A DNA stretch of 64,000 bases from a virus, in IMG/VR virus record IMGVR_UViG_3300025849_000016, positions 1-64,000 of that record. One strand, written 5' to 3'. Within the stretch, counting starts at the first letter, position 1. Every line of letters begins with the position of its first letter. Shown one piece after another: positions 3,776 through 55,941 of the stretch. Position numbers and translations under genes: made by a program. The notes beneath the pieces are model-generated. The model was not told where the DNA came from and did no database searches. It saw nothing but the letters and a program-made list of their open reading frames with translations.

Positions 3776-3783
3776 TATTTATC
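3776..3783 (-). promoter_or_regulatory. T4-late-like promoter (GATAAATA), probably leaderless mRNA
   Basis: Minus strand GATAAATA-CATT-ATG, overlapping the terminase stop codon. Confidence 0.7.
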
Positions 3784-5362: not shown

Positions 5363-5366
5363 AATG

Positions 5367-5374
5367 TATTTACT
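5367..5374 (-). promoter_or_regulatory. T4-late-like promoter (AGTAAATA), probably leaderless terminase mRNA
   Basis: Minus strand AGTAAATA-CATT-ATG, same spacer as at 3776. Confidence 0.7.
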
Positions 5375-5375
5375 C

Positions 5376-5402
5376 AAAAGAATAGCGCCCGTAGGCGCTA
5401 TT
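5376..5402 (-). terminator. Intrinsic terminator with C(UACG)G tetraloop
   Basis: Minus strand AATAGCGCC-TACG-GGCGCTATT-CTTTT. Confidence 0.8.
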
Positions 5403-13315: not shown

Positions 13316-13421
13316 TGCGTTATCTCCTTGAAAGTAAACTTTACAAATGTATTTAGTCAAGTCGAGGTAAAATATACCTATTATACGCTATAAAAAGGGG
13401 AGCAAAAGGTGTAAATATAGT

Positions 13422-40479: not shown

Positions 40480-43400
40480 TTATGGAGCTGTAAAAAGTTG
40501 ACTCATGATGTAAAGTCCTGAATAACTTTGAAGATTAACCGAAGCATCAAAATTTATATTTGTTGCTGTGGCGTTATTATTTAAATTAATTCCAGTAATA
40601 TCAAATTGTAATTGACTCGTAAGTAATGCGTTTGCATTAACTACTGAACCACCGCTTGAAATACGACTTGTAATATATGCACCAATTGCTTTCTGTGTAG
40701 GCACAACATTATCGCTGTTATCACTAAATGTAGGATCTGTACTAAATTCTCTTACTACAGCATTTGTACCGCCTAACACAATACCGCCAATTCTTAATTC
40801 ATCTAAACCTGATAAATCAAATTGCGATGCACTTATTGTAACTGTACCGGTAGCTTGATCAACCTTAAATAACTCACCAACTCTAAAGTTACCATCTTGG
40901 TCAGTACTTGTATAAAATACTCGGCCGCCGCCAGAACCAGCTGTTTCTTGGTTTTGTTTTGGATCATTTTCTGATGTGTATCCTTCAGTATACCTAGATG
41001 GATATGCAGTTTCTATAAAATTACCCGAACCAATGTCGAGAAAATCATGTCCTGTCAATCGTATTTGACTAAAGTTTTGACGTATATTAATAAATGTATC
41101 ATGTATTGGTGCTTCATTGATATCCAATGGCGGAGTAATTTGCAATTGTGCTGAAAGAGAAGGTTCAGTACCTTGTAAATTTTCAATTTTTTGTACATAA
41201 AATTGTTTATTAAGACCTGTAAATGTTATAGAGTCACCTGGTCCAGGGCTTCTTAATAAATTACTAACTTGAATAATTCCGCCTACTGGATATATATCAG
41301 CATACCCGTCACCGTTGATTTCTATAATTGTTTTAAAATATAAGGAACCTGGATCTAATATACTCGGTTGTCCTAAGACACCTGACTGTATTCTAATATC
41401 AAACTGGGCATCAGTTGCAGCTAGGCTATCAATTAACTGTCCTACAGGAGAATTAGTATATCCGCTACCTGGATCGACTATAATAAAAGAGTCAACTCTA
41501 CCAGATATAATGTCAGGTCTTGCAACAGCCCTAGCACCGTATTCTAAAAATTGTACGTTAGACGAACTTGTACTATTAATTAATATCCAAGAACTATATG
41601 AAATGTCATCACTTGTATATTCAATATATTTTAATTTTGACCAAGTTTGTCCGCCAATTGGAGTAATTGCTCTCCAGTTAATGGCATCTTGACTAACGTT
41701 TAAAACACCATTATTAGCTACTGCTAGAAACAATCCATTATTAATATCTATTTTCCAAGAACCAACACTAATAGCATTTGGATCAGCTTGGGCTCCTTTA
41801 AAATGATTACCGATTGTAAATTGTATAGATTCATTATACACATTACGAGCATACAGAGGTAAACTTGCAAGAGTGCCGCCTATATCTCTTGCACATGCAA
41901 CAAATGCTCCTTCGCCGCCAGCAAAATCTGTAATTTCATATCCTGATAAAGTTGATAAAATGCTTCCTCCTGCAATAGGAGTAAATGATGTTCCGTTGTC
42001 GATAGATTCGTAAGCAATCCCAGTAGTATCTATAGCAATCCATCTATTACTATCATAACCGATAAAACTAAATCCTCCTGCTTTACCAGTATTACTTTGA
42101 GTCCAAGATACACCGCTGTCAGTTGATACTGCTATATTTTGTGTTCCTGTAGCTACTGCTATTACAGTAGCTCCATATACTTCTACATCTTGATAATTTA
42201 ATGCTGGAACTTCTGTTGATGATGCCCAATTTATTCCGTCGGATGATTCTGCTACACTGCCTGAGGTTGCAAATGCTATAAATTTAATTCCTGTCCAAAC
42301 TAATGATTGCCAATCTGCACTAGATGGCAATGTTGTATTAACCCATGTTGTTCCATTATTAGAATATGCAACAACATTTGATCCTATAGTAGTAATAACA
42401 TTTATCGAACCATTTGATGCTGCACTACCTAATTCTTTAAAACTTCCTGAAGCTTGAGCAAATGAATTGTAAGCTGGATCATCGATGTTAAATGAAGGTT
42501 CAATTACATATCTAGATGTACCATCTAATGTTGTTGCAAGTGCATTACCGGAAACTAATGTATTCCATCCTGTCTGTCCCCACATATTTTCTATAGTTGC
42601 TATTTTTGTACTAGGGTCATATGCACTTATTTTCCCCCATTGACCTACGCCAAGTCCGGCTTTAATAAAAAGATTCATTCCAACATAACTATTATCTTCT
42701 GCTAAATCAGATGCGGACAATGTTATACTTGTTAAGCTGCCAAACTGTGCATTGTTTTCAATTTTTCTAAAATCTGCGCCGCCTATGTTACTTGAATCGT
42801 CGCTTTCTTTGATTCGTATTTCTGCTATACTTTTATATCTTGTTTTTTGATTTTGTAAAGATCCTGCAATTCCTGATCCTGTAATAGTATAAAGTGCTTC
42901 TGTATATTCTTGTCCTGCATGAGAAAATCCTACACCAACAATTTTTCCATCTGCATCTGTATATGTTTCTTTAACTACTGCTTCACTAGATCTGTTATTT
43001 AAAGTAGCAGTAATAGGCAGTTCTTCTGGATTTACTCCTTCAGCAACTGATCCAAAGTCTCCGTAAGAGTTGTTTCCGTTAGTTGCTCTAAGTTTGCCAC
43101 CATCAGTAGCAAGATATCCTATATGACAATAATATGTAAACACAGACACAAGTTCTGATCTACCTTGTCCATCTGCCCAATACCCAATGCCGTCACTTAA
43201 AATCTGTGTAAAGTCGTTAGCTACCATTGATCGATATCCACCGTTATGTAAATTTCCATCAATTTTCATTCCAACACATCCTGTGCCAAAAGAACTACAA
43301 TTTTGTACATATGGTGATTTATTTTCAATCCAAACTGATGTATCATCTGGTCCTTCACCAGGATCGAGTGATACATATGAACCAGCACTTGGGCGTCTTG

Positions 43401-45603
43401 TTAAATAATCGTTTAAATCACCAAGTGTTCCATTTAGACCTGAAAATGTCATATTACGCATTCCACTTCCGTTATTCATATAAAACATGTTTGCTGTTTC
43501 ATAACTTGCGGCTGGTTTAACATTAACACTTCTTAATTCGTCGCCTATAATTGCAACTTCTCTTGGAACTATAATAGGTAATTCTTCTTCATATGTTCCA
43601 GTTTTAACAAAAATAGTAGCAGGTGCTCGTCCTGGAAGATCAGCTGCAATGTACTCACATGCATACTTGATAGTTCTAAAAGGTGCACCTTCACTACCAT
43701 TTTGTGTTGTATTGTTTCCTAATAAGCTAACATAGTACACTTTTGGCACATTTTGAAATTGTGCCCATTCAATCGGCGATGCTGCTCCAACTTTTAAAGT
43801 ATTACCTGCTGTGCCTATTGCAAAATTACTATCACTGGATAAATTTCTATATTTTAAATCACCGACATTAACTAGTACGTTTGTAGCACTACCTTGAATT
43901 AATATATTCCAATAGCTATTATCAGCATCTAAATCAGGTCTAACTAATGTACTATCGTCGCTTTGATGGCCTTGAATACAGACGTATGCTGTACCTGCAT
44001 ATGTTGCAACATCACCTAATGCATATCTTGTTGCTAAATTCCATGGTCCTTTCCATGCAACACCTGTAATAATTTTATCCCAACTAGCACTATCATTTGT
44101 TACTATTGCTTTACTAAAGTTATACATTCCACTATGATTTGCACAGACAGGATACAGTGTATTCCAGTTAGATTGAGGTTGAAGTTCAATTGTTCTTACA
44201 TTAGCGGAACTAAAACCAGATATATATAATTCTGGAGTTACTTCTATATTATCTAATTTATACACTGGCCCTACTACATAATTATAATTTCCTTCAACAT
44301 GATGTCCATTCTCTTTTGTACTAAAATACATAGGATGTGTATTATTAGTACTGTCTGATTGGTTAATTATATATGTATTTCCGATTACTAAAAATAGATT
44401 AGGTGCTAACACACCATTTAGAAAATATTTATTAGAACCTGAAGATTCTGCTACAGTAACTTCATAAGTTGTTGTTGACGGCTCTTCAATTGGGTACGAA
44501 GAAGTATCTTGGGTTGCAACATATATGTCTCCCCCGTCTCTAACTACATCACCTGTAGCGTATCTTGTATCTTCAGTCCATTGACCTCTAAAATTATAAC
44601 TTGTCGATATTACATCCCAAAATGCACTATCAACTGCTGGGAAATTTCCTATGTTTAAATTAGTAATACTACTATAAGTGTATCCGCCATATAGTACCAT
44701 ATCGCCTATTTGATAAGATGTTGTTTCATTATATAGTGCTTCATAACCTGTGCCTGGTATGTATAATGTCCAGTTTCCAGGAGTAAATGCTACGGTTTGT
44801 TGAACTATAGATGTAATATATAAACTATTGTTCCATTTTACAATATCGTTTGGCAAATACAAAGTACTATTCGACCAAACGCCTGCATAACGTGTACTAT
44901 CTATAACTAATTCCCAATTCGAAGAATCAATAGGTAGACCGAGTAACTCGTTTGCCGTTGATGTATGCCCTGTTATACAACGATATATTCTACCGCCGTA
45001 TGTAACTACATCTCCTTTTGTAAATCTGTTACTTATTCCCCAAGAGGTTCTAAAATTATCTGAAGGATTTATTAGCTCCCATTTTTCTTGATCTGCTTCA
45101 AGACCGTCTGAGGTTGACCTCGACGTGTGTTCTGTTATACAATTATATGTATAACCATTATATGTAACTACATCTCCTACAAAATAACTACGTGTTACAG
45201 CCCAGCTATTACGCCATTGCGATGTTTTTGCAAGAAACTCCCATTTTTCTATATCTGCTGCAACTCCGGATGTACTTAGTGCTGCACTTGTATGACCTGT
45301 TATACACTTATATATAGTAGCTCCGTATTTAATAACTTCACTAGTTTCGTACTTTGTATTTGCTGCCCATGTACCTCTAAATCTTTGGCCTTCTGCCATT
45401 AGTACCCATCTAGGTTCGGGATTGCTGTACAGATCAACTGCATTTAAATCGTCGTCAAAAGAAGATAACGATGAAATATGTCCAATTAAACAAACATAAA
45501 TTTTACCGCCTACAACTGCAATATCGTCTTGACTAAATGACGTTCCGTTGGCCCAGGGACCTTTCCAAATGTATTTAAATCGTGATATATTAAATTCTGC
45601 CAT
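40480..45603 (-). CDS. Paralogous large tail spike/fibre-like protein with inserted cupredoxin-like domain and Asp-box (BNR) propeller
   Basis: Same architecture as 36163-40425 plus HPMYFS...VCANHSGM and SxDxGxxW-like repeats (SNNGTTW, SSDGINW, STDSGVSW, SIDNGTSF, SQDAINW). Confidence 0.75.
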   Translation of the reverse strand: MAEFNISRFKYIWKGPWANGTSFSQDDIAVVGGKIYVCLIGHISSLSSFDDDLNAVDLYSNPEPRWVLMAEGQRFRGTWAANTKYETSEVIKYGATIYKCITGHTSAALSTSGVAADIEKWEFLAKTSQWRNSWAVTRSYFVGDVVTYNGYTYNCITEHTSRSTSDGLEADQEKWELINPSDNFRTSWGISNRFTKGDVVTYGGRIYRCITGHTSTANELLGLPIDSSNWELVIDSTRYAGVWSNSTLYLPNDIVKWNNSLYITSIVQQTVAFTPGNWTLYIPGTGYEALYNETTSYQIGDMVLYGGYTYSSITNLNIGNFPAVDSAFWDVISTSYNFRGQWTEDTRYATGDVVRDGGDIYVATQDTSSYPIEEPSTTTYEVTVAESSGSNKYFLNGVLAPNLFLVIGNTYIINQSDSTNNTHPMYFSTKENGHHVEGNYNYVVGPVYKLDNIEVTPELYISGFSSANVRTIELQPQSNWNTLYPVCANHSGMYNFSKAIVTNDSASWDKIITGVAWKGPWNLATRYALGDVATYAGTAYVCIQGHQSDDSTLVRPDLDADNSYWNILIQGSATNVLVNVGDLKYRNLSSDSNFAIGTAGNTLKVGAASPIEWAQFQNVPKVYYVSLLGNNTTQNGSEGAPFRTIKYACEYIAADLPGRAPATIFVKTGTYEEELPIIVPREVAIIGDELRSVNVKPAASYETANMFYMNNGSGMRNMTFSGLNGTLGDLNDYLTRRPSAGSYVSLDPGEGPDDTSVWIENKSPYVQNCSSFGTGCVGMKIDGNLHNGGYRSMVANDFTQILSDGIGYWADGQGRSELVSVFTYYCHIGYLATDGGKLRATNGNNSYGDFGSVAEGVNPEELPITATLNNRSSEAVVKETYTDADGKIVGVGFSHAGQEYTEALYTITGSGIAGSLQNQKTRYKSIAEIRIKESDDSSNIGGADFRKIENNAQFGSLTSITLSASDLAEDNSYVGMNLFIKAGLGVGQWGKISAYDPSTKIATIENMWGQTGWNTLVSGNALATTLDGTSRYVIEPSFNIDDPAYNSFAQASGSFKELGSAASNGSINVITTIGSNVVAYSNNGTTWVNTTLPSSADWQSLVWTGIKFIAFATSGSVAESSDGINWASSTEVPALNYQDVEVYGATVIAVATGTQNIAVSTDSGVSWTQSNTGKAGGFSFIGYDSNRWIAIDTTGIAYESIDNGTSFTPIAGGSILSTLSGYEITDFAGGEGAFVACARDIGGTLASLPLYARNVYNESIQFTIGNHFKGAQADPNAISVGSWKIDINNGLFLAVANNGVLNVSQDAINWRAITPIGGQTWSKLKYIEYTSDDISYSSWILINSTSSSNVQFLEYGARAVARPDIISGRVDSFIIVDPGSGYTNSPVGQLIDSLAATDAQFDIRIQSGVLGQPSILDPGSLYFKTIIEINGDGYADIYPVGGIIQVSNLLRSPGPGDSITFTGLNKQFYVQKIENLQGTEPSLSAQLQITPPLDINEAPIHDTFINIRQNFSQIRLTGHDFLDIGSGNFIETAYPSRYTEGYTSENDPKQNQETAGSGGGRVFYTSTDQDGNFRVGELFKVDQATGTVTISASQFDLSGLDELRIGGIVLGGTNAVVREFSTDPTFSDNSDNVVPTQKAIGAYITSRISSGGSVVNANALLTSQLQFDITGINLNNNATATNINFDASVNLQSYSGLYIMSQLFTAP

Positions 45604-45615
45604 TTTTTTTCCTAA

Positions 45616-45981
45616 TTATACATCGTCTGAGTAAGTATACCCTTGGTTAATTCTAACAACAAATTCACCATCATCATTTATATAATAGTAAACATTCCTA
45701 TCATCCCAACGGAATTGCTCGTAGTTTAAATTTCTATATACAAGATTATGATAGGTATCTCTACCTTCAAAAAAATCTTGCCCAGGCGTAAATCCTGGAT
45801 AATCCTGACTCGGGTCATCGCCTACGTTGTTTATTTGAATGCCGTCAGTAACATTTAACTGATCAACTTTTGCAAAGTGCAGATACCCGTCCGGATCTCG
45901 ACGAAGTCCATAAAAATATCTAGCGCCGCCTAGTGAATCTGCAAGCATTCCGGTATCATTACCTACATAAAAATCAGCCAT
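45616..45981 (-). CDS. Hypothetical aromatic/acidic virion-associated protein (paralogue of 58568-59077)
   Basis: RYFYGLR, G.DFFEG.D, Y.Q.RWDD...YY..D.GE...R.NQG; AGGAG RBS; GATAAATA at 45999-46006. Confidence 0.65.
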   Translation of the reverse strand: MADFYVGNDTGMLADSLGGARYFYGLRRDPDGYLHFAKVDQLNVTDGIQINNVGDDPSQDYPGFTPGQDFFEGRDTYHNLVYRNLNYEQFRWDDRNVYYYINDDGEFVVRINQGYTYSDDV

Positions 45982-46004
45982 GTTAATCTCCTATATTGTA
46001 TTTA

Positions 46005-49000
46005 TCAGATAGCATTGTTTGGATAAGAATATCCTGCTCCCCAAATTATTCTTATAACTCCTCTTGAACCAGAAGCTCCGAAATCGTCTGGTATACCATT
46101 ACTGTTTCCTCCTGATGAGCCGCCGCCACCGCCTCCAAATTCTCCACCTGTAGCGCCACCGTTAGCGCCGCCAGATCCACCTGTACCGTTTTTGTCTGAC
46201 GTGTAAGAACCCGAAGCACCTTGTGTACCTGCGTTACCGCTAGTACCGACACCATTTACTCCAACACCACCGCCGCCACCGCCGGTAGTTGGATCATAAT
46301 AACCCTGGCCGTATGAAGTATAATAAAAGTTTGTAGACTCGTGGGCGCCACCGCCTCCGCCACCTGACCCATTGCCTGGATTAGACGATACTTTGCCTGC
46401 GCCGGCGCCGCCGTTTCCTTGATAGCCTCCAGCGCCGCCACCTCCGCCACCACGTTGTCCGTCTGTGTCGCCTCCGTTGCCGCCAAAACCTCCGCCATAA
46501 TTATTAGTTTGTGCATCAGATGAGTAAACAAGAGTAGTGCCTCCAAGGCCGCCATTACTACTATTACCACCAGTACTTGTAGTTGGTGGAGTAAAAGTGT
46601 CCCATGTCTGTCTACCACCACCGCCGCCTTCGGCTCCTAGTAAAATAGTACTTCCTCTTTTAATTGAACTATCGCCGCCGTCACCGGCTGCAGGTAAAGA
46701 AGCAGCTCCAGCACTACCTCCTGCACCAACAGTAAGTGATAATGTTTCACCTGGAGTAACTGAAATTGATTCTGCCCAAGCTAGGGCGCCGCCACCTCCT
46801 CCTCCGCCTGAACCTGTGTTATTAATACCGTTTGTGCCTGCTGTAGCATGGCCTGCACCTCCGCCTCCGCCGGCAATGACTACTGCACTAATACTAGTTA
46901 CGCCTCCAGGAACAACCCATTCTTGAGAAGTAGTAAATGTTTGTGTTCCTGTAGACGGAGTTTCACTTGTATCATTTATTGTTATATTAGATGAATTAAA
47001 AACATTACTATCAGGATCTGTTACTGTTATTTTAAAATTTTCAACTCCTTCAGAAACAGCATCATTTGATATCGGAAGCTGAATAGTTGATGTGTATCCG
47101 TATTGACTTGTATTTACTTCTGGTGCAAATATCCCTGACAATGCAACTATAAAATCAGAATTATCTATTCCCGTTCCGGATACAGCCCATGAATGTGTTC
47201 CGTTTGTTGCACAGTCAATATTAGCAAATACAATCGATCCTTCGTCATATACTAACGGAGAAATTCTAAATTCAACTGTTGGTTTTATAGTAAGTTCGTC
47301 AGAAGTAAATACAGTATTTCCTAAATTATTGACTATACTTACTGTAAATGTATCTTCAGAAATTTCTGCATCTGCTACTGTTTCTAATGTAAATGATCCG
47401 CTATTGCCTTGAAGATAAAACGGTTCACTTTGTAAAGATTCTGAAACAATATCTATTTGCCCGGACATACTAGAATGTGTGCCGCATTGATAAAATAATC
47501 TAGAAGGTGCAGTATTAGGTACTGTAAATTCTAATACACCTGATGTTACACCTTGTCCTGTTATACCTGAGGAATACAAATTTCCATTTCCGGTTACCTG
47601 ATCTGTTTTAATATAAAATGGATGTGTAGGAGTATTTACTGAAAATCTATAAGTTCTTCCTCTAATAAGTGTTAAAACTGGATTGTTAAAATTAAGTAAT
47701 CCGTTTCCAGTAAAAGTATAATAATCACTTAATGTATTAACTATGTTAAACGTAATAGGTAAAGTTGTGTCTCTATAAAAATCAAAATTAGAAGTTGAAA
47801 TATGATTAATTAAATAAAAGTATGTACTACCAGATATAACGCTTTCGGTTGTAACTGTTGCAGATATTGACTGGCCTGCTCTAAATATAGTATCTGAAAA
47901 ATTAACACTAATTGTAGGTTCTTCATTGTCTTCAATTAATGTTAAATCAATACTAGTAACGTCATTGAGCTCGTATAATAAGCTGGGATTATAAATTGTA
48001 AATGTTGCTACAGCATTACCAATATATACATCTGTTTGCTCTGTTTCTATAGTAATTACTAATTGATTTTCTCCTGTAACAAATCTAGATATACCGCTTG
48101 TGCCTATAAATCTATTGTCAGTATTAGTTAATGACCAAGCAATTGTCGGAGTATCTGTTAGAGAACTTATACCATCTACAAGATGTTCTCGTTCTAATGT
48201 AATAGTAAATGTTGATCCTTCATTAACAGAAATATTAGGAGTTACAATAGTCATAGTTTTAATTTCAGATATTGTATCATTTATTCTTACATTACAAACA
48301 TTATTATTAATATCAATTATATAATTATTTGTTGCACTTAATATTCTAATAGTATTAAAAGTCGATGTTTGTAAACCTGGTTCTGAACTAATCGGAATAC
48401 TAATTGAATTAGTTAATGACGTTCCTAAAATAGTCACAATTCCACTAGTAACAGAAACTCGATCATCGTTAAGAGCTGTACCGAAGCTCCAAGATATATC
48501 TGTAGAATCAGATGGTGTTGTGTCTAATCCGTTTCTTTTAAATATTCTAGTAAGATCAATATTACCTGTAGTGCCTTCTGTTAAAATTACAGAACTTTCA
48601 ACTCTAATTAATTTATATAAATTATTTATTGTGATAATACTATCTCCTAAAACAGTATATCTTGAATCGTTAATCGATGTAATTTCTATAATATTTGTTA
48701 TACTAGCAGCATCTGTATTTTGTGGATTAACTGAAACTATAAAAGAAGCTTCTGATTGACCTGCTGGAATAACTGTTGAACCAGTAGTACTAGACCACCG
48801 ACTATCAGCTACATCCCCTACATTTTCTCCTCTAATAGCCCAATACACTGTTACAGGTTTTGATAAATCTGTAGTACCGTTTCTAATAGATGTACGCAAT
48901 AAGGTAACAGTTAAACTATTACCTTCATCAACCGAATAGGTAGTAGACAGGAAACCTATTTCTCTTATTGGTTGATTAGGATTACTTTGAACACCTAAAC

Positions 49001-50666
49001 TTAGTTGAGATGTTTGTATTGTATATGAATCTGTTACTGCTGTTAAGTTAAATGCAAACGATCCTATATTTGATCCTGGAACATCAGATAATTCGTCGTC
49101 TAAAACAGGAATAGTAATTACCTGTGTTGAATTTCCAGCAACATACTGAACTTCTCTATCTACATTTTTTGCTGCACTATTTACAGTAGTTGGTATTATT
49201 CCAGTTAATCTATAAGAAATAATCGGAGTGTCTTCATCAAAACTCATAGTAGTATTATTATCAACTTCATACACATCATCATTGTGTGCTGCACGTTGTG
49301 CAGTTTGCCCTTCATAACCTCTGTTACCGCCCCATATAATTCTTACTGCACCGTTGCCACCGCTTGGTCCAGGAAAACATTGATCAGCATCAGTTCCTGG
49401 CCATTCATAACCTGATGCACCATGACCAAACCAACCTGTTGAGCTAGTAATATTTGAACCGTATTTTTGGTATACTAAAGATCCTGTAGATCCATTTGAA
49501 CCTTTAAATCCGTTAACATTGTTGCCGCCTATACTATTTTGACAAACTTGCCATAGTCCTGTGCCTCCGCCACATTGTCTATACCCTCCGGCACCTCCGC
49601 CACCAGATCCGTCAAGTCCGTATGGTTCTGTACCACTTCTTGGCCCGGCTGCACCTCCGGCTCCGTTATATCCTCCTGCGCCGCCTCCGCCGCCAGGTGA
49701 TCCTTGAGTAATAGTTCCGTCGAGTTGAGTTACTCTTTCTGTACCGCCGCCATTACCTCCAACTCCGCCGCCTTTAGGTGACAATGATGCATCAACAACA
49801 TATTGACCGCCGCTGGCTAATGAACTATAACTATTAAACGACGAAGTACCACCGCCGCTGCCGCCACATGCTGCCATAAATTGACAAGTGTTTCCTATAT
49901 GACATATACGTGTAGGTTCTCCATTAGATCCTACATTACCTACTTGTCCAGTTCCTCCTGCTCCAACTTCTATTTTAATTTGATCCCCCGGAGTAACTGA
50001 AGATGTACCCCAAGCAAGGCCGCCGCCTCCGCCACCTTTACCCCAAAATGTTTCAAGTTGCGTTCCGTATGCTCCGCCACCGGCTCCTCCGCCACCGATT
50101 GCTACCATACTTATTTCACACACTCCATTAGGAATTTCCCAATTATAAGTGCCTGGAGAAGTATAAGCAACTTGACCTTGCGGTTGTAATCCAGTAACTT
50201 CAAATGTTTTTAAAATAGGTATAACAAAAGACTGTTCTGCATTATCTAAAACGACAGATGTAGCATTTGCTGCATCTATAGTTACATTTTTGTTGTATGT
50301 AATTGCGCCATTAGGCGCTGATCTAATTTCAAATCTTCGACTATATGCATATACTTCGTTATTTACTGTTGCTTTTAATTTATAAAATTGATTTTGAAAG
50401 CTATCATCTGTTTCAATTGTTAATACAGTATAATTATTGTTTGAATCATTAGTACCGTAATTTTCAAAAGTAAATGCCGGAACATTTACAATAGTACTAG
50501 CAGTATCTTGCTCAATTGAATATGTAACTGATTTTCTATTTGATATAATTCCTACCTTAATTTGAGAGTTAATAGGTATTATTATTTCATTTAATTTTGT
50601 TTCAAATTCAATTGTTCCAGAAGTACCACTTGAAGAAACAATGCCAATTATACCAATATCAGACAT
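46005..50666 (-). CDS. Multidomain adhesin/fibre protein: two glycine-rich domains, Calx-beta/Ig-like repeats, cupredoxin-like domain
   Basis: W..P.GV..IS.V.I.GGG.G...G..RIIWG x2; SV.EG repeats; THPFYIK...FYQCGTHSSMSG. Confidence 0.7.
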   Translation of the reverse strand: MSDIGIIGIVSSSGTSGTIEFETKLNEIIIPINSQIKVGIISNRKSVTYSIEQDTASTIVNVPAFTFENYGTNDSNNNYTVLTIETDDSFQNQFYKLKATVNNEVYAYSRRFEIRSAPNGAITYNKNVTIDAANATSVVLDNAEQSFVIPILKTFEVTGLQPQGQVAYTSPGTYNWEIPNGVCEISMVAIGGGGAGGGAYGTQLETFWGKGGGGGGLAWGTSSVTPGDQIKIEVGAGGTGQVGNVGSNGEPTRICHIGNTCQFMAACGGSGGGTSSFNSYSSLASGGQYVVDASLSPKGGGVGGNGGGTERVTQLDGTITQGSPGGGGGAGGYNGAGGAAGPRSGTEPYGLDGSGGGGAGGYRQCGGGTGLWQVCQNSIGGNNVNGFKGSNGSTGSLVYQKYGSNITSSTGWFGHGASGYEWPGTDADQCFPGPSGGNGAVRIIWGGNRGYEGQTAQRAAHNDDVYEVDNNTTMSFDEDTPIISYRLTGIIPTTVNSAAKNVDREVQYVAGNSTQVITIPVLDDELSDVPGSNIGSFAFNLTAVTDSYTIQTSQLSLGVQSNPNQPIREIGFLSTTYSVDEGNSLTVTLLRTSIRNGTTDLSKPVTVYWAIRGENVGDVADSRWSSTTGSTVIPAGQSEASFIVSVNPQNTDAASITNIIEITSINDSRYTVLGDSIITINNLYKLIRVESSVILTEGTTGNIDLTRIFKRNGLDTTPSDSTDISWSFGTALNDDRVSVTSGIVTILGTSLTNSISIPISSEPGLQTSTFNTIRILSATNNYIIDINNNVCNVRINDTISEIKTMTIVTPNISVNEGSTFTITLEREHLVDGISSLTDTPTIAWSLTNTDNRFIGTSGISRFVTGENQLVITIETEQTDVYIGNAVATFTIYNPSLLYELNDVTSIDLTLIEDNEEPTISVNFSDTIFRAGQSISATVTTESVISGSTYFYLINHISTSNFDFYRDTTLPITFNIVNTLSDYYTFTGNGLLNFNNPVLTLIRGRTYRFSVNTPTHPFYIKTDQVTGNGNLYSSGITGQGVTSGVLEFTVPNTAPSRLFYQCGTHSSMSGQIDIVSESLQSEPFYLQGNSGSFTLETVADAEISEDTFTVSIVNNLGNTVFTSDELTIKPTVEFRISPLVYDEGSIVFANIDCATNGTHSWAVSGTGIDNSDFIVALSGIFAPEVNTSQYGYTSTIQLPISNDAVSEGVENFKITVTDPDSNVFNSSNITINDTSETPSTGTQTFTTSQEWVVPGGVTSISAVVIAGGGGGAGHATAGTNGINNTGSGGGGGGGALAWAESISVTPGETLSLTVGAGGSAGAASLPAAGDGGDSSIKRGSTILLGAEGGGGGRQTWDTFTPPTTSTGGNSSNGGLGGTTLVYSSDAQTNNYGGGFGGNGGDTDGQRGGGGGGAGGYQGNGGAGAGKVSSNPGNGSGGGGGGAHESTNFYYTSYGQGYYDPTTGGGGGGVGVNGVGTSGNAGTQGASGSYTSDKNGTGGSGGANGGATGGEFGGGGGGSSGGNSNGIPDDFGASGSRGVIRIIWGAGYSYPNNAI

Positions 50667-50674
50667 TAAAACTC

Positions 50675-51601
50675 CTAACTAAAATTCTGGCCAGCAACAA
50701 ACCCATAAAATCCGACGCCACTATCAACAGATAATAATGTAATAATATCTTTGCCGCTAGATGTTAAAGTAGGTGGCGATCCTTGTGACCAAATAATATT
50801 ATTAGGCCAAGTTATATCATGTGTTGCAGTATTTGTAATAATAAGTGTTATAGTTGATCCTGCGTTAGAAGCATTTAATAAACTAAGATTAGTAATATTA
50901 TTATTTAAATTAATTGCAAATACATTAGATGTTGCTAAATCTAAATCTAATGATCCAGTAGATGACTCTAGTGTAATAGCAGGTTCATTACCTGCACCTT
51001 TTACTTTTATGTATCCGTTCATATCAGATCTAACTTCACTTTGGTATACATATGTTCCAGCTGCATTTACTGGTATTTGCCAGTATAACGATCCAGAGTT
51101 CTTACCTTGAGCTGAAATTCCTTGTAATACAGTTCCGTTATCAGCAACATGATATAATCCATCATTAAAATCGCTACCGGTAATATCTTGTATTCTTACA
51201 GCATCACCTGCTGTATTAAGATCAAATCTTATAGTAGTTCCAGAAAATGCAGTTATATTAGGATTATTAGAATTTTCTGGATCTTCAGCTATTCTATAGT
51301 TTGTACTCGAAGTAGATAAAGTAAAAGCAGCAGCACACGGGAATGCAATTTGTCTATATTTTAGAGAAGTGTTTACAAAAAAAGTACCATTATAAAATAT
51401 CATATCTCCTGATTCAAGATCTGAAAATCCTACATCAGTTAAACTTACCATTGACGTAGAGCCACCGCCACCACCGCCAGTTGCGCCACCTAATGACGTT
51501 GCCTTCCATAAATTTTTAGCTAATACATATGTGTACAAAGTATTAGATGCTATAAATTCCTGTCCATCTGTTGGATTGCTTGGAAAGTTTATTTGAGCCA
51601 T
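50675..51601 (-). CDS. Fibre-associated protein with ligand-less cupredoxin-like domain
   Basis: INFPSNPTDGQ N-terminus; NP.IT...GTTIRFDL...YVYQSEVRSDMNG; C-terminal ITWP..I.W..G.PPTLT; two TAAATA motifs at 51620-51645. Confidence 0.6.
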   Translation of the reverse strand: MAQINFPSNPTDGQEFIASNTLYTYVLAKNLWKATSLGGATGGGGGGSTSMVSLTDVGFSDLESGDMIFYNGTFFVNTSLKYRQIAFPCAAAFTLSTSSTNYRIAEDPENSNNPNITAFSGTTIRFDLNTAGDAVRIQDITGSDFNDGLYHVADNGTVLQGISAQGKNSGSLYWQIPVNAAGTYVYQSEVRSDMNGYIKVKGAGNEPAITLESSTGSLDLDLATSNVFAINLNNNITNLSLLNASNAGSTITLIITNTATHDITWPNNIIWSQGSPPTLTSSGKDIITLLSVDSGVGFYGFVAGQNFS

Positions 51602-51643
51602 TTGTTGTTCTCCTAACTATATTTATTGAATTAGTTGTATTTA

Positions 51644-54583
51644 CTATGAAGCGTTGTCCGGGAAAGATCTTCCTGCGCCCCAGATAATTCTCACTGCTCC
51701 CGGTGCTCCGTTTTCGTGCCCGCCGCCTTTTCTAGCATAACCTCTGCCGCCTCCCCCATAGATATTTGTTCCGGCAGTAGAAGTTCTTGCTGAGCCGCTG
51801 CTTCCGCCTGTACCGTTAAGACTTAATTCAGTGCCTGCAACACCACTGTCTCCTTCTCCAAAAATGCCAACGCCGCCGCCGGCACCAGTTGTCGAGGCGG
51901 TAGCAAATCCGCCACCGCCTCCACCGCCTGCTCCGTTAGAGGGAGTGTTTGACCAGCGTTTTCCTCGGCCGCCATTGCCTGAATATCCGGCAGCTCCGCC
52001 ACCACCACCACCGTTTTGGGCATTAAAGGATCTATCACCAGATGCGCCGCCAATGCCGCCACCATCTCTTTCGGCACCAGAACTTGTTCCTCCTTGGCCA
52101 TTAGTTTGTGCATCTGACCAATAAGTAGTGCCGCCGGATCCCCCGCCGCCTTCTAATAAAGTTGTCAATCCTTGTATAATTGCACTATCTCCGCCAGATA
52201 CGCCAGGTCTGCCAACGCCGCCGCCTCCGCCTACCTGAATGTCTAAAGTTTCGCCAGGCGTTACTGCAAATGTACCATATGCAAGGCCTCCGCCTGCTCC
52301 GCCGCCACCGGCTTGGCCATATACATTAACTGTAGTGCCTTGACCACCGCCACCTCCGCCGCCGATGACTACTGCACTTACCGAAGTCACACCTAACGGA
52401 ACAGTCCAACTAGTAACTAAATTAGTTGTATCTGATGTAGTAGTAAATATTACCTCTCCTGGTGCTGGCATGGATTCTATTGTTCCACTCATACTGATAT
52501 GAATACCGCACTGATAGTAAAAGTTACCCGTATCTTGTATAACCCAATTAATTATTCCGTTAGCAGTTCCGTTACTTAAAATTCCAACTACTTGGTCATT
52601 TGTTCCTATAACTGGTGCCGTTTTTATATAAAACGGATGCCCGGGTGAATTTACAATAAATCTTACCGAATCACCGGATTGAAAGGTTAGGCTTGGATCA
52701 TTGCCACTTACTGCGCCGTTTCGATCAGTACCTGTAAGTATATAATGAGATGCGCCGCTATTTGTTACTGATATAGTAAAGTCGGGTGGCGGTTCATATG
52801 TAGTTTCAAACCCGTTTGAATCTGCTAATGCTACATTAGTTGAGGGGAATTGTCTATTTGACCCCCAAATAATTCTTACTGCACCGCCGCCACCAGATGT
52901 ATTTTCTAAACCAGGATATGAAGTTGTATAATCACTACTAGTACTAGCTCTTCTATATGTAACACCGCCGCCGCCGCCATATTCGCCCCCATTTGCTTGA
53001 GCGCCTGATGCGCCTACGGCGCCTAGATCACCACCAGAGCCGCCACCACCTGCTTCTATAGAAGTAGCCGAATTGGCAAGGCCACCTGCGCCATTTGCAC
53101 CTTGTCCATAAACTCCAACACCACCACCGCCGGCGCTCTGTGCGTCCCCAGTAAAATTAACATTACCTGAGCTATAATGGCCAGCACCACCACCACCACC
53201 GCCAGTGCCTGGTTCACCAGGATCTAAAACTATAGTGGTGGCAGGATTCTGTCCATGTTCGCCTGCATGGCCGCCATCGCCAGAATATCCGCCGGCGCCA
53301 CCACCTGATTTTGATGCCGTTACATATCCGCCGCCTTGACTGCCGTATCCGCCTCTGCCGCCGCCTGATCCAATCCATTCATTGCCAGCATACGTTCTAG
53401 CTTGGCCGGCAGATCTGCCGCCAGAAGCTTTTACTGTTGATGTACTTATAAAATAACTTTGTTCAGATTGCGTTTCAACAGTACCAGTTGAGGTATTTGT
53501 TCCGCCAGCACCTACTACAATATCATACTCTTGACCAGGTATAACAGGTATAGAATTTTTCCAAGCTAGAGAGCCACCCATACCGCCGTAAGTGTTATAA
53601 TCGCCAACACCGCCACCGCCGACAACAACAGTAGATACTAATGTTACATTGTCTGGCGCAGTCCATGTATACGTGCCAGGAGTATCATATAGTATACCTC
53701 CATAGACTGCTGTAGCATTAATTGTACCAGTCATTGATCCGTGGTATTGACAAATGTAATAGAAAGTAGATACTGTATGCACAGTCCATCGAATTGTACC
53801 GCTAGTTGTACCATTATTTGGTATTTCGCTTCCGTCAATAGTAATTGTATCTCCTACATCAGTATTTGCTACTGTTTTAAGAAAAAATGGATGACCTGAA
53901 GCATTAACTACAAAATCTACAACATCACCTAAATAAAATGTTAAGGTTGGATTAGATCCACTTACTGCGCCGTTTCGATCAGTACCAGACATTGTATAAG
54001 CTGAAGCACCAGAGTTAGTTACATTAATTGTATAATCAGCTAGGGAATCATCTACAGGTGTAGTACTAGTATCAGTAATAGTAAACACAGCCGAAGTAGC
54101 ATTAGTAGGGTTTCCTAACGAGTCAGTAGAATCTAAAGAAAGAGTTGCTGTTTCAATATCTTCAGTAGTTAAATCAGATTTTGCTATTAATGTTACAGTT
54201 GCAATACCGTTGTATATAATTGCAGTTCCTTGAAAAGATCCACCTGTAACATCAGAACTACTAATCCCTTCCCATAAATAACCAACTGATGTGCCATCTG
54301 TTACTCCAGTTGTAGATATAGTAACAGTCATAGTATCGCCTTCGTCTACAGCGCCGCCAATTGGATTTTTAATTAAAGTATAAGTAGGAGTGCCTGAATA
54401 ATAACTAGTTTCTGTTAGAGCTTTCCAATCTCCAGTATTTGTTTTTTTTATATAAAATAAATTTTCAGATGAAACATATATAATAGTACCGATATCTCTA
54501 TTGTTAGCAGATAAATCATTTAATGCAGTAATTGTTTCAACACCTTCTCTTGATAACGATTTTTTAGAAGAATACTTTGCCAT
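51644..54583 (-). CDS. Adhesin/fibre protein: Calx-beta-like domain plus two (cupredoxin-like + glycine-rich) units
   Basis: GHPFFLK...YYICQYHGSMTG and GHPFYIK...YYQCGIHISMSG, each followed by a Gly-rich domain ending GAVRIIWG. Confidence 0.7.
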   Translation of the reverse strand: MAKYSSKKSLSREGVETITALNDLSANNRDIGTIIYVSSENLFYIKKTNTGDWKALTETSYYSGTPTYTLIKNPIGGAVDEGDTMTVTISTTGVTDGTSVGYLWEGISSSDVTGGSFQGTAIIYNGIATVTLIAKSDLTTEDIETATLSLDSTDSLGNPTNATSAVFTITDTSTTPVDDSLADYTINVTNSGASAYTMSGTDRNGAVSGSNPTLTFYLGDVVDFVVNASGHPFFLKTVANTDVGDTITIDGSEIPNNGTTSGTIRWTVHTVSTFYYICQYHGSMTGTINATAVYGGILYDTPGTYTWTAPDNVTLVSTVVVGGGGVGDYNTYGGMGGSLAWKNSIPVIPGQEYDIVVGAGGTNTSTGTVETQSEQSYFISTSTVKASGGRSAGQARTYAGNEWIGSGGGRGGYGSQGGGYVTASKSGGGAGGYSGDGGHAGEHGQNPATTIVLDPGEPGTGGGGGGAGHYSSGNVNFTGDAQSAGGGGVGVYGQGANGAGGLANSATSIEAGGGGSGGDLGAVGASGAQANGGEYGGGGGVTYRRASTSSDYTTSYPGLENTSGGGGAVRIIWGSNRQFPSTNVALADSNGFETTYEPPPDFTISVTNSGASHYILTGTDRNGAVSGNDPSLTFQSGDSVRFIVNSPGHPFYIKTAPVIGTNDQVVGILSNGTANGIINWVIQDTGNFYYQCGIHISMSGTIESMPAPGEVIFTTTSDTTNLVTSWTVPLGVTSVSAVVIGGGGGGGQGTTVNVYGQAGGGGAGGGLAYGTFAVTPGETLDIQVGGGGGVGRPGVSGGDSAIIQGLTTLLEGGGGSGGTTYWSDAQTNGQGGTSSGAERDGGGIGGASGDRSFNAQNGGGGGGAAGYSGNGGRGKRWSNTPSNGAGGGGGGGFATASTTGAGGGVGIFGEGDSGVAGTELSLNGTGGSSGSARTSTAGTNIYGGGGRGYARKGGGHENGAPGAVRIIWGAGRSFPDNAS

Positions 54584-55932
54584 TATGAATAATCCTGTTC
54601 TTGCACAACACTATCTGTATTTGCTGCATTAGTTGCAGGGAAATTACGGGCAGCTCCCCATATTATTCTTACTGCGCCGCCTGCTCCGTTTTTTCCAAAA
54701 CCTGCTGCTGTGTTAGTAGTTACGGCTGTCCCACTACCGCCGCCACCTGGAAACCCACCTGCTCCTGTATCACCATTACCGCCACCAGATCCGCCGCCTC
54801 CACCGCTTCGGAGTACCGGAGTTCCGTCTAATCCAAGTCCGTTAAATCCTGTTCCACCGCCGCCAGACAACCCCGGGGATGAAATAGATTCACTACCACC
54901 TGCGCCACCGCCGCCTATACCTGCTGTTCCATTTTGTCCATTTACTGGAAGATTTTGAATAAATGACGAGCTTCCACCTGTGCCGCCAGCACCGCCATAT
55001 CCACCGGCCCCTCCGCCACCGCCACCTGTACTTCCAACACTTGTTGCTCCACTTCCGCCATCGCCTCCAGAATATGCTGAATTTAGTCCAGCAACACCGC
55101 CGCCTGCACCAGCAGTACCAAACGATCCGCCCTGACCACCTGATGCTTCTATCAGTACTTGTCCGTTTCCAGTTTTTGAAACTCTAGTGAATCCACCGTT
55201 AGAACCTGGAAAGTTTCTTACACCTCCGCTGCCTCCAGTACCAACTGTAATTGTTAGTGATGACCCGTCATTTTCAACATTATTAACATAAGATAGTGTA
55301 CCACCGCCTCCGCCTGCACCAGATGTATTAGTTGAAGATTGCATACCAGAACCGCCGCCACCTGCTCCTACACAAACAATATGTATTAATTCAGGAGTTC
55401 CTTGAGGAGGAACCCATGTATACACACCCGGCTTTGTCCAAATTGCTCCGCCATCTGCTGCTGTAGTAACTGTTTGAGAAAGTAATAACAATACATCTTT
55501 TGATACAGTATTAATCCCGTCAGTAACAGTTACTCTAATAAGTTTTTCACAAGTGTCTGTTGTTATAATAGGTGTAATAACTAATACACCTGTATCTATG
55601 TCAAATGTTAATGAATCAACCGGATCTGTACCTGTGTTATCGCTAGTAAATGTTGGATAAGATAATTCATAATTTAATAAGGCACCCTCAGGATCTGTTA
55701 CGCCAAAGTCTAAAGTTGTAGTAGCACCTGCTTGTTCTAAAAATACTGTTGCATCTATTCTATTATTCCATGTAGGAGCAATATTAGATGTTTCAACATA
55801 CCCCCACTCATCTCCGTCCCATAGAAATACTTCTCCGGATATAAAAGATTTACTACCGTCTGGTACTCCGATACTAGGCAAGCTGCCTATGTACTCTCGT
55901 TGATACTGTTTTCGATCGCTGTAGTTTGCCAT
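54583..55932 (-). CDS. Adhesin/fibre protein: cadherin/Ig-like domain plus glycine-rich domain
   Basis: NIAPTW...TDPEG...VTDGIN; PGVYTWVPP...VGAGGGG...GAVRIIWG. Confidence 0.7.
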   Translation of the reverse strand: MANYSDRKQYQREYIGSLPSIGVPDGSKSFISGEVFLWDGDEWGYVETSNIAPTWNNRIDATVFLEQAGATTTLDFGVTDPEGALLNYELSYPTFTSDNTGTDPVDSLTFDIDTGVLVITPIITTDTCEKLIRVTVTDGINTVSKDVLLLLSQTVTTAADGGAIWTKPGVYTWVPPQGTPELIHIVCVGAGGGGSGMQSSTNTSGAGGGGGTLSYVNNVENDGSSLTITVGTGGSGGVRNFPGSNGGFTRVSKTGNGQVLIEASGGQGGSFGTAGAGGGVAGLNSAYSGGDGGSGATSVGSTGGGGGGAGGYGGAGGTGGSSSFIQNLPVNGQNGTAGIGGGGAGGSESISSPGLSGGGGTGFNGLGLDGTPVLRSGGGGGSGGGNGDTGAGGFPGGGGSGTAVTTNTAAGFGKNGAGGAVRIIWGAARNFPATNAANTDSVVQEQDYS

Positions 55933-55941
55933 TATTACTCT

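What the first reader, a model, noticed from the sequence alone, without database searches (positions are those of the whole stretch)
44120..54035. Four virion-protein domains with an intact amicyanin-type blue-copper ligand set
Seen: a ~100-aa domain with an upstream HP(F/M) His and a C-terminal C-x2-H-x2-M loop occurs four times: ~44120-44475 (CANHSGM), ~47446-47750 (CGTHSSM), ~52473-52782 (CGIHISM) and ~53715-54035 (CQYHGSM). Known: His + Cys-x2-His-x2-Met is the type-1 Cu site spacing of amicyanin (CTPHPFM). Inference: the fibres display cupredoxin domains, giving a copper-binding or redox-active virion. Possible roles are docking on metal-uptake or electron-transfer surface proteins, or oxidising the Cys-rich tip proteins.
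Basis: partly seen in the sequence, partly recalled or inferred. Interest (0 to 1): 0.8.

Follow-up and report, generated by a model that had tools for sequence, protein, structure and literature searches.

The report
Blue-copper-type domains on phage tail fibres
Three giant tail-fibre proteins of an uncultured jumbo phage carry four copies (plus one decayed copy) of a small domain with the fold and all four metal-binding residues of blue copper proteins such as amicyanin and plastocyanin, so the virus particle probably displays bound copper, which nobody has measured.

Summary
C-x2-H-x2-M occurs exactly four times in all long frames of the window (0.11 expected). Each sits at the end of a ~105-aa homologous domain, with an upstream H-P-(F/M), in three adjacent minus-strand fibre genes.

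- **Fifth copy.** I found a ligand-less copy in the next gene (51002-51316).
- **Fold.** AlphaFold gives a confident model of one copy (pLDDT 96). Every top structural match among 48,161 PDB representatives is a cupredoxin (Z 11.4, rmsd 1.9 Å over 92 residues).
- **Ligands.** Profile alignments put the four residues on plastocyanin's four copper ligands.
- **Distribution.** The module is widespread: 5,238 clusters, in cyanophage fibre and baseplate proteins and in marine Flavobacteriaceae surface proteins.
- **Selection.** Ligands are kept all-or-none: 219 copies intact, 3 lost one, 24 lost two or more.
- **Link to a curated family.** A 45%-identical bacterial copy passes Pfam PF00127. The window's own copies match no curated model.

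Copper binding itself, and any redox or receptor role, remain untested. Oxidising the Cys-rich proteins is unlikely. I read these as metal-stapled accessory or adhesion modules. No paper describing them was found in the literature library. This scan has already reported the same module in at least 66 other genomes. New here are the PA5oct-like jumbo-phage setting and the decayed paralogue.

The parts
40480..45603 (-). P0001, 1707-aa fibre/spike protein. It has N-terminal CBM5/12-like repeats, a cupredoxin module, a beta-helix core, a propeller-like region and a conserved C-terminal domain.
   Evidence: PHROG tail fibre phrog_9851 at E 1.6e-176; PF02839 in 6 stretches. One search compares it with its paralogue.
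44104..44475 (-). Copy D1 (P0001 aa 377-500). This is the most divergent cupredoxin module. It has a ~20-aa insertion, with ligands H423, C487, H490 and M493.
   Evidence: Independent profile E 5e-6. The AF2 model is weak (pLDDT 60, insertion below 50). It still matches rusticyanin at Z 9.3 and auracyanin at Z 8.7.
46005..50666 (-). P0002, 1553-aa fibre protein. It has a Gly-rich domain, Calx-beta-like repeats, a cupredoxin module and a second Gly-rich domain.
47439..47765 (-). Copy D2 (P0002 aa 968-1076), with ligands H1015, C1061, H1064 and M1067.
   Evidence: Independent profile E 3e-37. PF25489 scores 25.9 bits, just under its cut-off of 27.
50675..51601 (-). P0004, 308-aa small fibre protein that holds the degenerate fifth copy.
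   Evidence: phrog_677 baseplate wedge tail fiber connector, and tail-fibre C-terminal families.
51002..51316 (-). Degenerate fifth copy (P0004 aa 96-200). It belongs to the same domain family, but the ligand columns read Asp, Ser, Arg, Met.
   Evidence: E 3.5e-14 with the non-window profile.
51644..54583 (-). P0003, 979-aa fibre protein built as [cupredoxin + Gly-rich domain] twice. Its only two cysteines are the two ligand cysteines.
52469..52792 (-). Copy D3 (P0003 aa 598-705), with ligands H649, C692, H695 and M698. This is the copy that was modelled.
   Evidence: AF2 pLDDT 96.1, pTM 0.88. VIA-align Z 11.4, rmsd 1.9 Å over 92 aa to the N-terminal cupredoxin domain of Hyphomicrobium nitrite reductase; rusticyanin Z 11.3. 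It is 45% identical to a Bacteroidetes domain that passes PF00127.
53708..54037 (-). Copy D4 (P0003 aa 183-292), with ligands H231, C278, H281 and M284.
   Evidence: Independent profile E 8e-32. 88% identical to a copy in metagenomic protein P0019.

Best explanation
The four stretches are autonomous ~105-residue cupredoxin modules. They belong to a large, unnamed subfamily of the blue-copper (plastocyanin/amicyanin/rusticyanin) superfamily and are inserted as accessory domains into three tail-fibre proteins of a PA5oct-like jumbo myophage.

Each keeps a complete type-1 site. His sits in the G-H-P-F turn after strand 4. Cys ends strand 7. His and Met lie in a short amicyanin-length loop before strand 8.

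Shown: the fold, the homology, the ligand positions in the alignment and the selection on the ligand set.

Inferred, step 1: each module binds one metal ion, most probably copper. Fibres fold in the cytoplasm, whereas the cellular relatives are exported. The preformed site is therefore probably filled by Cu(II) scavenged from oxic water after lysis, or by Cu(I) or Zn before it.

Inferred, step 2: the role is most likely that of a metal-stapled beta-sandwich. It would act as a rigid, protease- and unfolding-resistant knob on the fibre shaft that serves as a spacer or weak adhesion module, like Ig-like decoration domains. Electron transfer is less likely.
For: Fold:
- D3 model has pLDDT 96.1.
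- All Foldseek hits at E<=1e-3 that were listed are cupredoxins.
- VIA-align gives Z 11.4, rmsd 1.9 Å over 92 aa.
- All top 50 of 48,161 PDB representatives are cupredoxin-fold proteins.
- The weak D1 model also matches rusticyanin and auracyanin.

Homology:
- Family profiles hit only cupredoxins in the PDB. The four residues align to plastocyanin's ligands.
- 7 of 26 relatives hit PF00127.
- A Bacteroidetes surface-protein domain 45% identical to D3 without gaps passes the PF00127 cut-off, 28.6 against 21.2 bits.
- JGI names some relatives 'plastocyanin'.

Selection on the site:
- Among 246 gap-free copies, 219 keep H-C-H-M, 3 lost one ligand and 24 lost two or more.
- Cys and the second His are kept together in 222 copies and lost together in 21, with 3 and 0 discordant.
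- C-x2-H-x2-M spacing holds in 248 of 259 copies.
- P0003's only two Cys are the ligand Cys.

Structural or adhesin role:
- Copies occur as beads on a string (49 tandem junctions), at C-termini (63 of 245) and internally, with no fixed neighbour.
- Cellular relatives combine the module with LRR, InlB B-repeat, DUF285, He_PIG and TSP3 adhesin modules, and carry signal or lipoprotein leaders.
- In P0001 the module lies in the variable block that its paralogue lacks.

Virion context: PHROG tail-fibre and baseplate families and a T4 gp9/10-like neighbour. BFVD matches to cyanophage fibre proteins reach TM 0.91-0.97.
Against: - Convergence of the four side chains was therefore not checked directly.
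- The window's copies match no curated copper-protein model.
- PDB sequence E-values are only 0.02-0.06.
- The residue after the first His is Pro. Plastocyanin has Asn at that position in the alignment, so the second sphere is atypical.
- Fibres assemble in the cytoplasm, where cupredoxins are not normally metallated.
- No copper-handling gene was found in the available third of the genome.
- Ligand-less copies such as P0004's persist, so the fold does not strictly need the metal. This weakens a purely stabilising role.
- The all-or-none statistic is not corrected for relatedness. It also comes from the 150 best hits of a profile built from intact copies.
Confidence: 0.6

Rival explanations
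1. The copper centre acts directly in infection. One version is a redox-active site that exchanges electrons with a host surface component. The other is a metal-loaded decoy that docks on an outer-membrane copper or metal-uptake receptor, a copper analogue of the 'Ferrojan Horse' idea for iron in phage tails.
For: - The full type-1 set with axial Met is retained in about 85-90% of copies, even though ligand-less copies still fold and persist. This suggests the metal does more than stabilise.
- Metal-bearing fibres used for receptor access have been proposed for iron (abstracts of bioRxiv 10.1101/674382 and PMC11705849).
- Cupredoxin folds also serve in metal trafficking: EfeO, FtrB and CupA are among the structural matches.
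Against: - No partner is known.
- Ligand-loop residues next to the exposed His are small, polar and variable (S/G/A/N), not a conserved docking patch.
- Copies at fibre tips are no more often intact than internal ones (57/61 against 158/180, p 0.34).
- Tandem arrays and adhesin-type partners look structural.
Confidence: 0.15
2. The site is not copper-loaded in real virions. In this reading the module is used only as an Ig-like beta-sandwich spacer. The His/Cys/His/Met set is either empty or filled with zinc picked up in the cytoplasm, and is kept because it packs the C-terminal loop.
For: - Fibres fold in the cytoplasm, where free copper is negligible (established knowledge).
- No copper chaperone was found in the record.
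- The degenerate copy in P0004 and 27 other copies that lack one or more ligands show the fold survives without the site.
- Curated copper-protein models do not recognise the window's copies.
Against: - Four chemically specific residues, which are four of only seven invariant columns in 26 diverse sequences, are kept across thousands of clusters at 25-50% identity.
- They are lost together rather than one by one. That is the signature of a working metal site, not of packing.
- Type-1 sites bind copper very tightly and apo-cupredoxins take it up spontaneously (established knowledge).
Confidence: 0.2
3. The cupredoxin modules oxidise the neighbouring Cys-rich Gly-domain proteins (32.5-35.4 kb) to form their disulfides.
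Against: - A type-1 centre carries one electron and cannot turn over with O2 without a trinuclear cluster (established knowledge).
- About 24 Cys per protein would need many turnovers.
- No multicopper oxidase was found. The Erv-type oxidase search found nothing either, but its controls also failed to ring, so it is uninformative.
- The module is common in phages and bacteria with no such Cys-rich partners evident.
Confidence: 0.03

Closest known systems
Amicyanin (type-1 blue copper protein; NCBIfam TIGR02657)
   Same: - Cupredoxin fold.
- His ... Cys-x2-His-x2-Met, the shortest natural ligand-loop length.
- Amicyanin-loop chimeras (2ux6, 5u7n) and a nitrite reductase chain carrying CTPHPFM (2vmj) align to the loop without gaps.
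   Different: - No score for the window's copies against TIGR02657. Relatives reach 21-23 bits against a cut-off of 110.
- Not a free periplasmic carrier but a module inside 1,000-1,700-aa fibre proteins.
- Loop residues are small and polar rather than Pro/Phe.
- No methylamine dehydrogenase context.
Plastocyanin (Pfam PF00127; TIGR02656)
   Same: - Best sequence-profile matches in the PDB, with all four ligands aligned.
- Similar Y-x-C...H...M-x-G-x-I C-terminal signature.
- A 45%-identical relative passes PF00127.
   Different: - The ligand loop is two residues shorter.
- Pro instead of Asn after the first His.
- The window's copies fall below every curated threshold.
- Not part of photosynthetic electron transport, and distinct from the free plastocyanin (petE) that cyanophage genome papers list as an auxiliary metabolic gene (papers retrieved).
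Rusticyanin and the N-terminal cupredoxin domain of Hyphomicrobium denitrificans nitrite reductase (PDB 2cal/1rcy; 6tfo/2dv6)
   Same: Closest solved structures: Z 11.3-11.4, rmsd 1.9-2.4 Å over 92-95 of 108 residues.
   Different: - 17-20% identity.
- Those are respiratory electron carriers or domains with known partners.
- Rusticyanin has a long N-terminal extension.
The same unnamed module in cyanophage tail proteins (for example P-SSM2 Q58M57 'putative T4-like proximal tail fiber', S-H34 'baseplate wedge tail fiber connector', ACG-2014e 'Peptidase S8/S53 domain-containing protein'; PHROGs 677, 4474, 9158)
   Same: - 35-46% identity and TM 0.91-0.97.
- The same ligand set.
- Also located in fibre or baseplate proteins.
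   Different: - Those phages are T4-like cyanomyoviruses or T7-like podoviruses.
- This window is a jumbo phage whose terminase and sheath are closest to Pseudomonas phage PA5oct and Agrobacterium phage Atu_ph07.
- None of the records annotates copper.
Metal sites in phage fibres and spikes (T4 gp37 His-x-His iron sites; the 'Ferrojan Horse' hypothesis)
   Same: Virion tail proteins that carry bound transition metal (abstracts; T4 gp37 from established knowledge).
   Different: - Those ions sit on the trimer axis, bound by residues from three chains.
- Here each monomeric module has its own complete site of a kind otherwise used for electron transfer.
Ig-like decoration domains of phage virions (Hoc, BIG2, FN3-type)
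   Same: Optional beta-sandwich modules inserted in structural proteins, in tandem or terminal positions, and shared with bacterial surface adhesins.
   Different: Ig-like modules carry no conserved metal site.

Membership tests
Cupredoxin fold superfamily | Greek-key beta-sandwich of about 8 strands and about 100 residues | tested here: met
   D3 model pLDDT 96.1, with nine DSSP strand segments in cupredoxin order. All top matches are cupredoxins in Foldseek, VIA-align and the unbiased 48,161-chain search: Z 11.4, rmsd 1.9 Å over 92 aa. D1 meets it more weakly: pLDDT 60, Z 9.3.
Type-1 (blue) copper site | His after strand 4, Cys at the end of strand 7, and His and Met in the loop before strand 8 | tested here: met
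   In the model, H52 lies between E42-48 and E54-57, C95 ends E89-95, and H98 and M101 precede E102-107. HMM alignments place all four on plastocyanin's ligand positions. The set is intact in all four copies.
Type-1 (blue) copper site | The four side chains converge on one point in three dimensions | not testable with these tools
   Model coordinates are not returned. Convergence is inferred only from 1.9-2.4 Å superposition on copper-bearing domains.
Type-1 (blue) copper site | Binds Cu, with a ~600 nm charge-transfer band and small parallel hyperfine splitting in EPR | not testable with these tools
   Needs protein chemistry.
Pfam PF00127 Copper-bind (plastocyanin/azurin family) | Score at or above the gathering cut-off (21.2 bits) | tested here: not met
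   No hit for the window's copies. 7 of 26 relatives hit at E<=0.01. A 45%-identical Bacteroidetes copy passes at 28.6 bits. The window's copies therefore belong to the superfamily but are not recognised members of the Pfam family.
Amicyanin (TIGR02657 equivalog) | C-x2-H-x2-M ligand loop | tested here: met
   248 of 259 family copies have the 2+2 spacing.
Amicyanin (TIGR02657 equivalog) | Score at or above the curated cut-off (110 bits), as a free periplasmic carrier working with methylamine dehydrogenase | tested here: not met
   No hit for the window's copies. Relatives reach 21-23 bits. The domain is embedded in fibre proteins.
Plastocyanin (TIGR02656 equivalog) | Score at or above the cut-off (87.85 bits) and C-x2-H-x4-M spacing | tested here: not met
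   No hit for the window. A relative scores 25.4 bits. The alignment needs a two-residue gap in the loop.
Phage tail-fibre / baseplate proteins | Similarity to known fibre or baseplate families, and a location in the tail module | tested here: met
   phrog_9851, 17885, 13163, 677, 863 and 15006. A neighbour with T4_gp9_10_N. Sheath, tube and terminase lie in the same window. Virion presence was not confirmed by proteomics.

The most novel reading that the evidence does not exclude
Marine virions, and the surface adhesins of marine Flavobacteriaceae, carry working type-1 copper centres that take part in host recognition or surface redox chemistry. An example would be docking on copper-uptake receptors, a copper counterpart of the Ferrojan Horse. 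Summed over thousands of phage lineages, they would form an unrecognised pool of strongly complexed copper in seawater.
Probability: 0.13. Interest if true: 0.85.

Novelty: new variant of a known kind. Interest (0 to 1): 0.62.

Why it matters
Type-1 copper sites are known almost only as electron carriers inside cells, periplasms and thylakoids. Finding them intact, under selection and in thousands of lineages on the outside of virus particles and bacterial adhesins would give the site a new setting.

It would also add copper to the short list of metals built into phage tails. And it would bear on what binds the strongly complexed copper in seawater.

The claim is cheap to test. One ~12 kDa domain either turns blue with Cu(II) or it does not, and cultured cyanophages carrying the same module are available for ICP-MS. 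This window extends the module from cyanophages to a PA5oct-like jumbo phage. It also supplies an internal control, a ligand-less paralogue next door.

Tried and rejected
**Direct family scans of the window's copies**
- Pfam gave only sub-threshold hits: PF25489 at 25.9 bits and PF02298 at E 0.13.
- PF00127 searched over the whole record found nothing, even at E<=1.
- NCBIfam gave nothing.

**Searches that failed or were unavailable**
- Megablast of P0003 against cultured phages found no match.
A narrower alignment worked.

**Ideas rejected**
- Cupredoxin plus Gly-rich domain as an obligatory cassette. This was suggested by phrog_4474 and by P0003. Only 5 of 150 related proteins have a Gly-rich domain, and only 2 of 245 copies are followed by one.
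- Tip copies keeping the site more often than internal copies. There is no difference (p 0.34).

**Genes looked for in the 106.7-kb record and not found**
- Copper chaperone (HMA).
- Multicopper oxidase.
- Erv-type sulfhydryl oxidase. This search is uninformative, because its controls did not ring.
- psbA.
- The record is only about 31% of the genome, so none of these absences is strong.

**Literature**
Seven searches found no paper on cupredoxin or blue-copper domains in phage tail proteins or in marine Flavobacteriaceae surface proteins.

**Not attempted**
Complex prediction was not used. No binding claim is made, and copper is not among its ligands.
Full report
**1. What is there**

The window is the first 64 kb of a 106.7-kb IMG/VR virus record that CheckV rates 31% complete. 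That implies a genome of roughly 340 kb.

It carries a T4-type late module:
- UvsX-like recombinase, gp32-like single-strand DNA-binding protein, large terminase, tail tube and tail sheath.
- A T4 gp9/10-like baseplate protein.
- A run of giant minus-strand genes that match PHROG tail-fibre and baseplate families.

The terminase is 54% identical, and the sheath 46-50% identical, to Pseudomonas phage PA5oct and Agrobacterium phage Atu_ph07. No psbA is present in the available record. So this is a jumbo myophage, not a cyanomyovirus.

**2.

The three proteins are P0001 (40480-45603), P0002 (46005-50666) and P0003 (51644-54583). They contain CANHSGM, CGTHSSM, and CQYHGSM plus CGIHISM, each 43-64 residues downstream of an H-P-(F/M).

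C..H..M occurs nowhere else in any frame of 100 aa or more in the window: 4 observed against 0.11 expected.

The four surrounding stretches align as one domain, 26-52% identical. The four putative ligands are among 14 invariant columns. P0003 has only two cysteines in 979 residues, and both are the motif cysteines.

A profile search of the whole record found a fifth copy at 51002-51316, in the 308-aa protein P0004. Its ligand columns read Asp, Ser, Arg, Met.

A profile built solely from non-window relatives recovers all five. With Z set to 1e6, the E-values are 3e-37 (D2), 8e-32 (D4), 6e-30 (D3), 3.5e-14 (P0004) and 5e-6 (D1).

**3. Fold**

With a 26-sequence alignment, AlphaFold2 gives D3 a pLDDT of 96.1 and a pTM of 0.88. 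The model is all-beta.

- Foldseek against the PDB returns 55 hits at E<=1e-3. All those listed are cupredoxins, led by rusticyanin at 9e-6.
- VIA-align gives Z 11.4, rmsd 1.9 Å over 92 residues, to the N-terminal cupredoxin domain of Hyphomicrobium nitrite reductase. Rusticyanin scores Z 11.3.
- A search that does not depend on Foldseek, over 48,161 representative chains, lists only cupredoxin-fold proteins in its top 50.

In the model, H52 lies in the turn after strand 42-48. C95 ends strand 89-95. H98 and M101 lie in the loop before strand 102-107. This is the canonical type-1 topology.

D1 has a ~20-residue insertion and models poorly (pLDDT 60). Even so, it matches rusticyanin (Z 9.3) and auracyanin (Z 8.7).

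Coordinates are not returned, so I could not measure ligand convergence directly.

**4. Homology to copper proteins**

Profiles of the domain hit only cupredoxins in the PDB: plastocyanins, pseudoazurin, nitrite reductase, auracyanin, amicyanin and rusticyanin. E-values are marginal (0.02-0.06). In the alignments, His/Cys/His/Met fall on plastocyanin's ligands, and plastocyanin needs two extra loop residues.

The link is firmer through intermediates:
- 7 of 26 relatives hit PF00127.
- The C-terminal domain of an 821-aa InlB-repeat/LRR protein of marine Bacteroidetes SCGC AAA795-G10 passes the PF00127 cut-off, 28.6 against 21.2 bits.
- That domain is 45% identical to D3 over 101 residues without a gap.

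The window's own copies match no curated Pfam or NCBIfam model. Relatives score far below the equivalog cut-offs for plastocyanin, amicyanin, rusticyanin, halocyanin and pseudoazurin. The module is therefore a distinct, unnamed cupredoxin subfamily.

**5. Distribution and selection**

An exhaustive profile search of 1.84 billion representatives finds 5,238 clusters at E<=1e-3 and 2,360 at E<=1e-10.

In cultured phages it occurs in 68 records. These are almost all Synechococcus or Prochlorococcus myoviruses, plus a T7-like podovirus (P-SCSP2) and one actinobacterial phage. The annotations read hypothetical, baseplate wedge tail fiber connector, tail spike or proximal tail fibre.

In cellular genomes, one sub-branch sits on chromosomal contigs of marine Flavobacteriaceae and other Bacteroidota. 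It lies at the extreme C-terminus of LRR, DUF285 or InlB-repeat surface proteins. Other relatives have signal or lipoprotein leaders.

Across 259 copies in the 154 proteins analysed (the 150 best search hits plus the window's own four):
- The 2+2 loop spacing holds in 248.
- Among 246 gap-free copies, 219 keep all four ligands, 3 lack one and 24 lack two or more.
- Cys and the second His are present together in 222 and absent together in 21, with 3 and 0 discordant.

This all-or-none pattern is what a cooperative metal site predicts. It is not corrected for shared ancestry. It also comes from hits to a profile built from intact copies.

**6. How it probably works**

The module has no fixed neighbour. 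It occurs in tandem (49 junctions), at C-termini (63 of 245 copies) or internally. Only 5 of 150 related proteins share the Gly-rich domain that follows it in P0002 and P0003.

In P0001 it lies in the variable block between segments shared with the paralogue at 36163-40425, which lacks it. This is the behaviour of an optional beta-sandwich decoration or adhesion module.

The conserved site implies a bound metal. The residues are those of type-1 copper.

Virion proteins fold in the cytoplasm, whereas the cellular relatives are exported. I therefore infer that the preformed site is filled after lysis from oxic water, or holds Cu(I) or Zn earlier. I further infer that the metal chiefly locks the strand 7-8 loop and hardens the knob.

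The persistence of ligand-less copies, including P0004's, shows that the fold can do without the metal. That keeps a direct role open, whether receptor docking or redox. Against a direct role:
- The residues flanking the exposed His are small and variable.
- Tip copies are not better conserved than internal ones.
- No partner is known.

Oxidation of the Cys-rich neighbours is chemically implausible for a one-electron centre without an O2-reducing cluster. No multicopper oxidase was found. The Erv-type oxidase search also found nothing, but its controls failed to ring, so it is uninformative.

**7. Novelty**

Seven full-text searches found no paper describing cupredoxin or blue-copper domains in phage tail proteins or in marine flavobacterial surface proteins. 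Public records do not annotate copper, apart from some automatic JGI 'plastocyanin' labels.

Within this scan the same module has already been reported and confirmed in at least 66 other genomes. My results agree with those reports.

What this window adds:
- A non-cyanophage, PA5oct-like jumbo phage as carrier.
- Five copies in four adjacent genes, including a natural ligand-less control.
- The all-or-none ligand statistic.
- A chain of homology through a flavobacterial surface protein that passes PF00127.

**8. Verdict**

The fold and the ligand set are well supported. Copper binding is likely but untested, and its function is open.

Noticed in passing
51002-51316 (-), in the 308-aa protein at 50675-51601: A fifth copy of the cupredoxin module has lost its ligands (Asp/Ser/Arg/Met in the four columns). 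It lies between the two ligand-bearing fibre genes and is a natural negative control for copper-binding experiments.
   Followed up: yes
L042:838-3303 and L011:1636-3303 (marine Bacteroidetes / Flavobacteriaceae chromosomal contigs): The same module forms the extreme C-terminus of LRR / InlB-repeat / DUF285 surface proteins in 50-odd marine Bacteroidota genomes. In L011 the gene lies beside a T9SS PorP/SprF gene and a CHU_C-tailed protein. The module showed no match to known T9SS C-terminal domains in NCBIfam. Whether it hints at the phage's host or only at module exchange is open.
   Followed up: partly
window 3782-5377 and 10109-13360: The large terminase (54% identity) and tail sheath (46-50%) are closest to the jumbo phages PA5oct (Pseudomonas) and Atu_ph07 (Agrobacterium). 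CheckV's 31% completeness for 106.7 kb implies about 340 kb. The fibre modules, in contrast, resemble those of marine cyanophages.
   Followed up: partly
36163-40425 versus 40480-45603: These tandem paralogous 1420- and 1707-aa fibre/spike proteins share three blocks at 40-54% identity: the N-terminal CBM5/12-like repeats, the beta-helix core and the C-terminal domain. They differ in the accessory blocks between. The cupredoxin module lies in one of those variable blocks.
   Followed up: partly
47439-47765 (D2) and 6 of 26 relatives: Near-threshold matches to Pfam PF25489 'At5g54830-like domain' (25.9 bits against a cut-off of 27). By its name, that family is modelled on the plant protein At5g54830. 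It may be a related cupredoxin-like module. I did not examine it.
   Followed up: no
59411-63745 (-): This 1444-aa fibre-like protein has a strong composite hit to DUF903 (PF06004, E 5e-18, with no single stretch passing) and to phrog_9729 tail fibre.
   Followed up: no
46005-57612 (-): Six PF21722-type glycine-rich domains lie in four adjacent genes, ending in a V-R-I-I-W-G-like motif. Two of them directly follow cupredoxin modules in P0003. That pairing is not general in the wider family.
   Followed up: partly
BFVD matches to the D3 model: Giant-virus proteins have the same fold at lower similarity (TM 0.58-0.73). They are labelled 'Beta-sandwich protein' (Marseillevirus and Pithovirus metagenomic lineages) and 'Blue type 1 copper protein' (Fadolivirus).
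   Followed up: no
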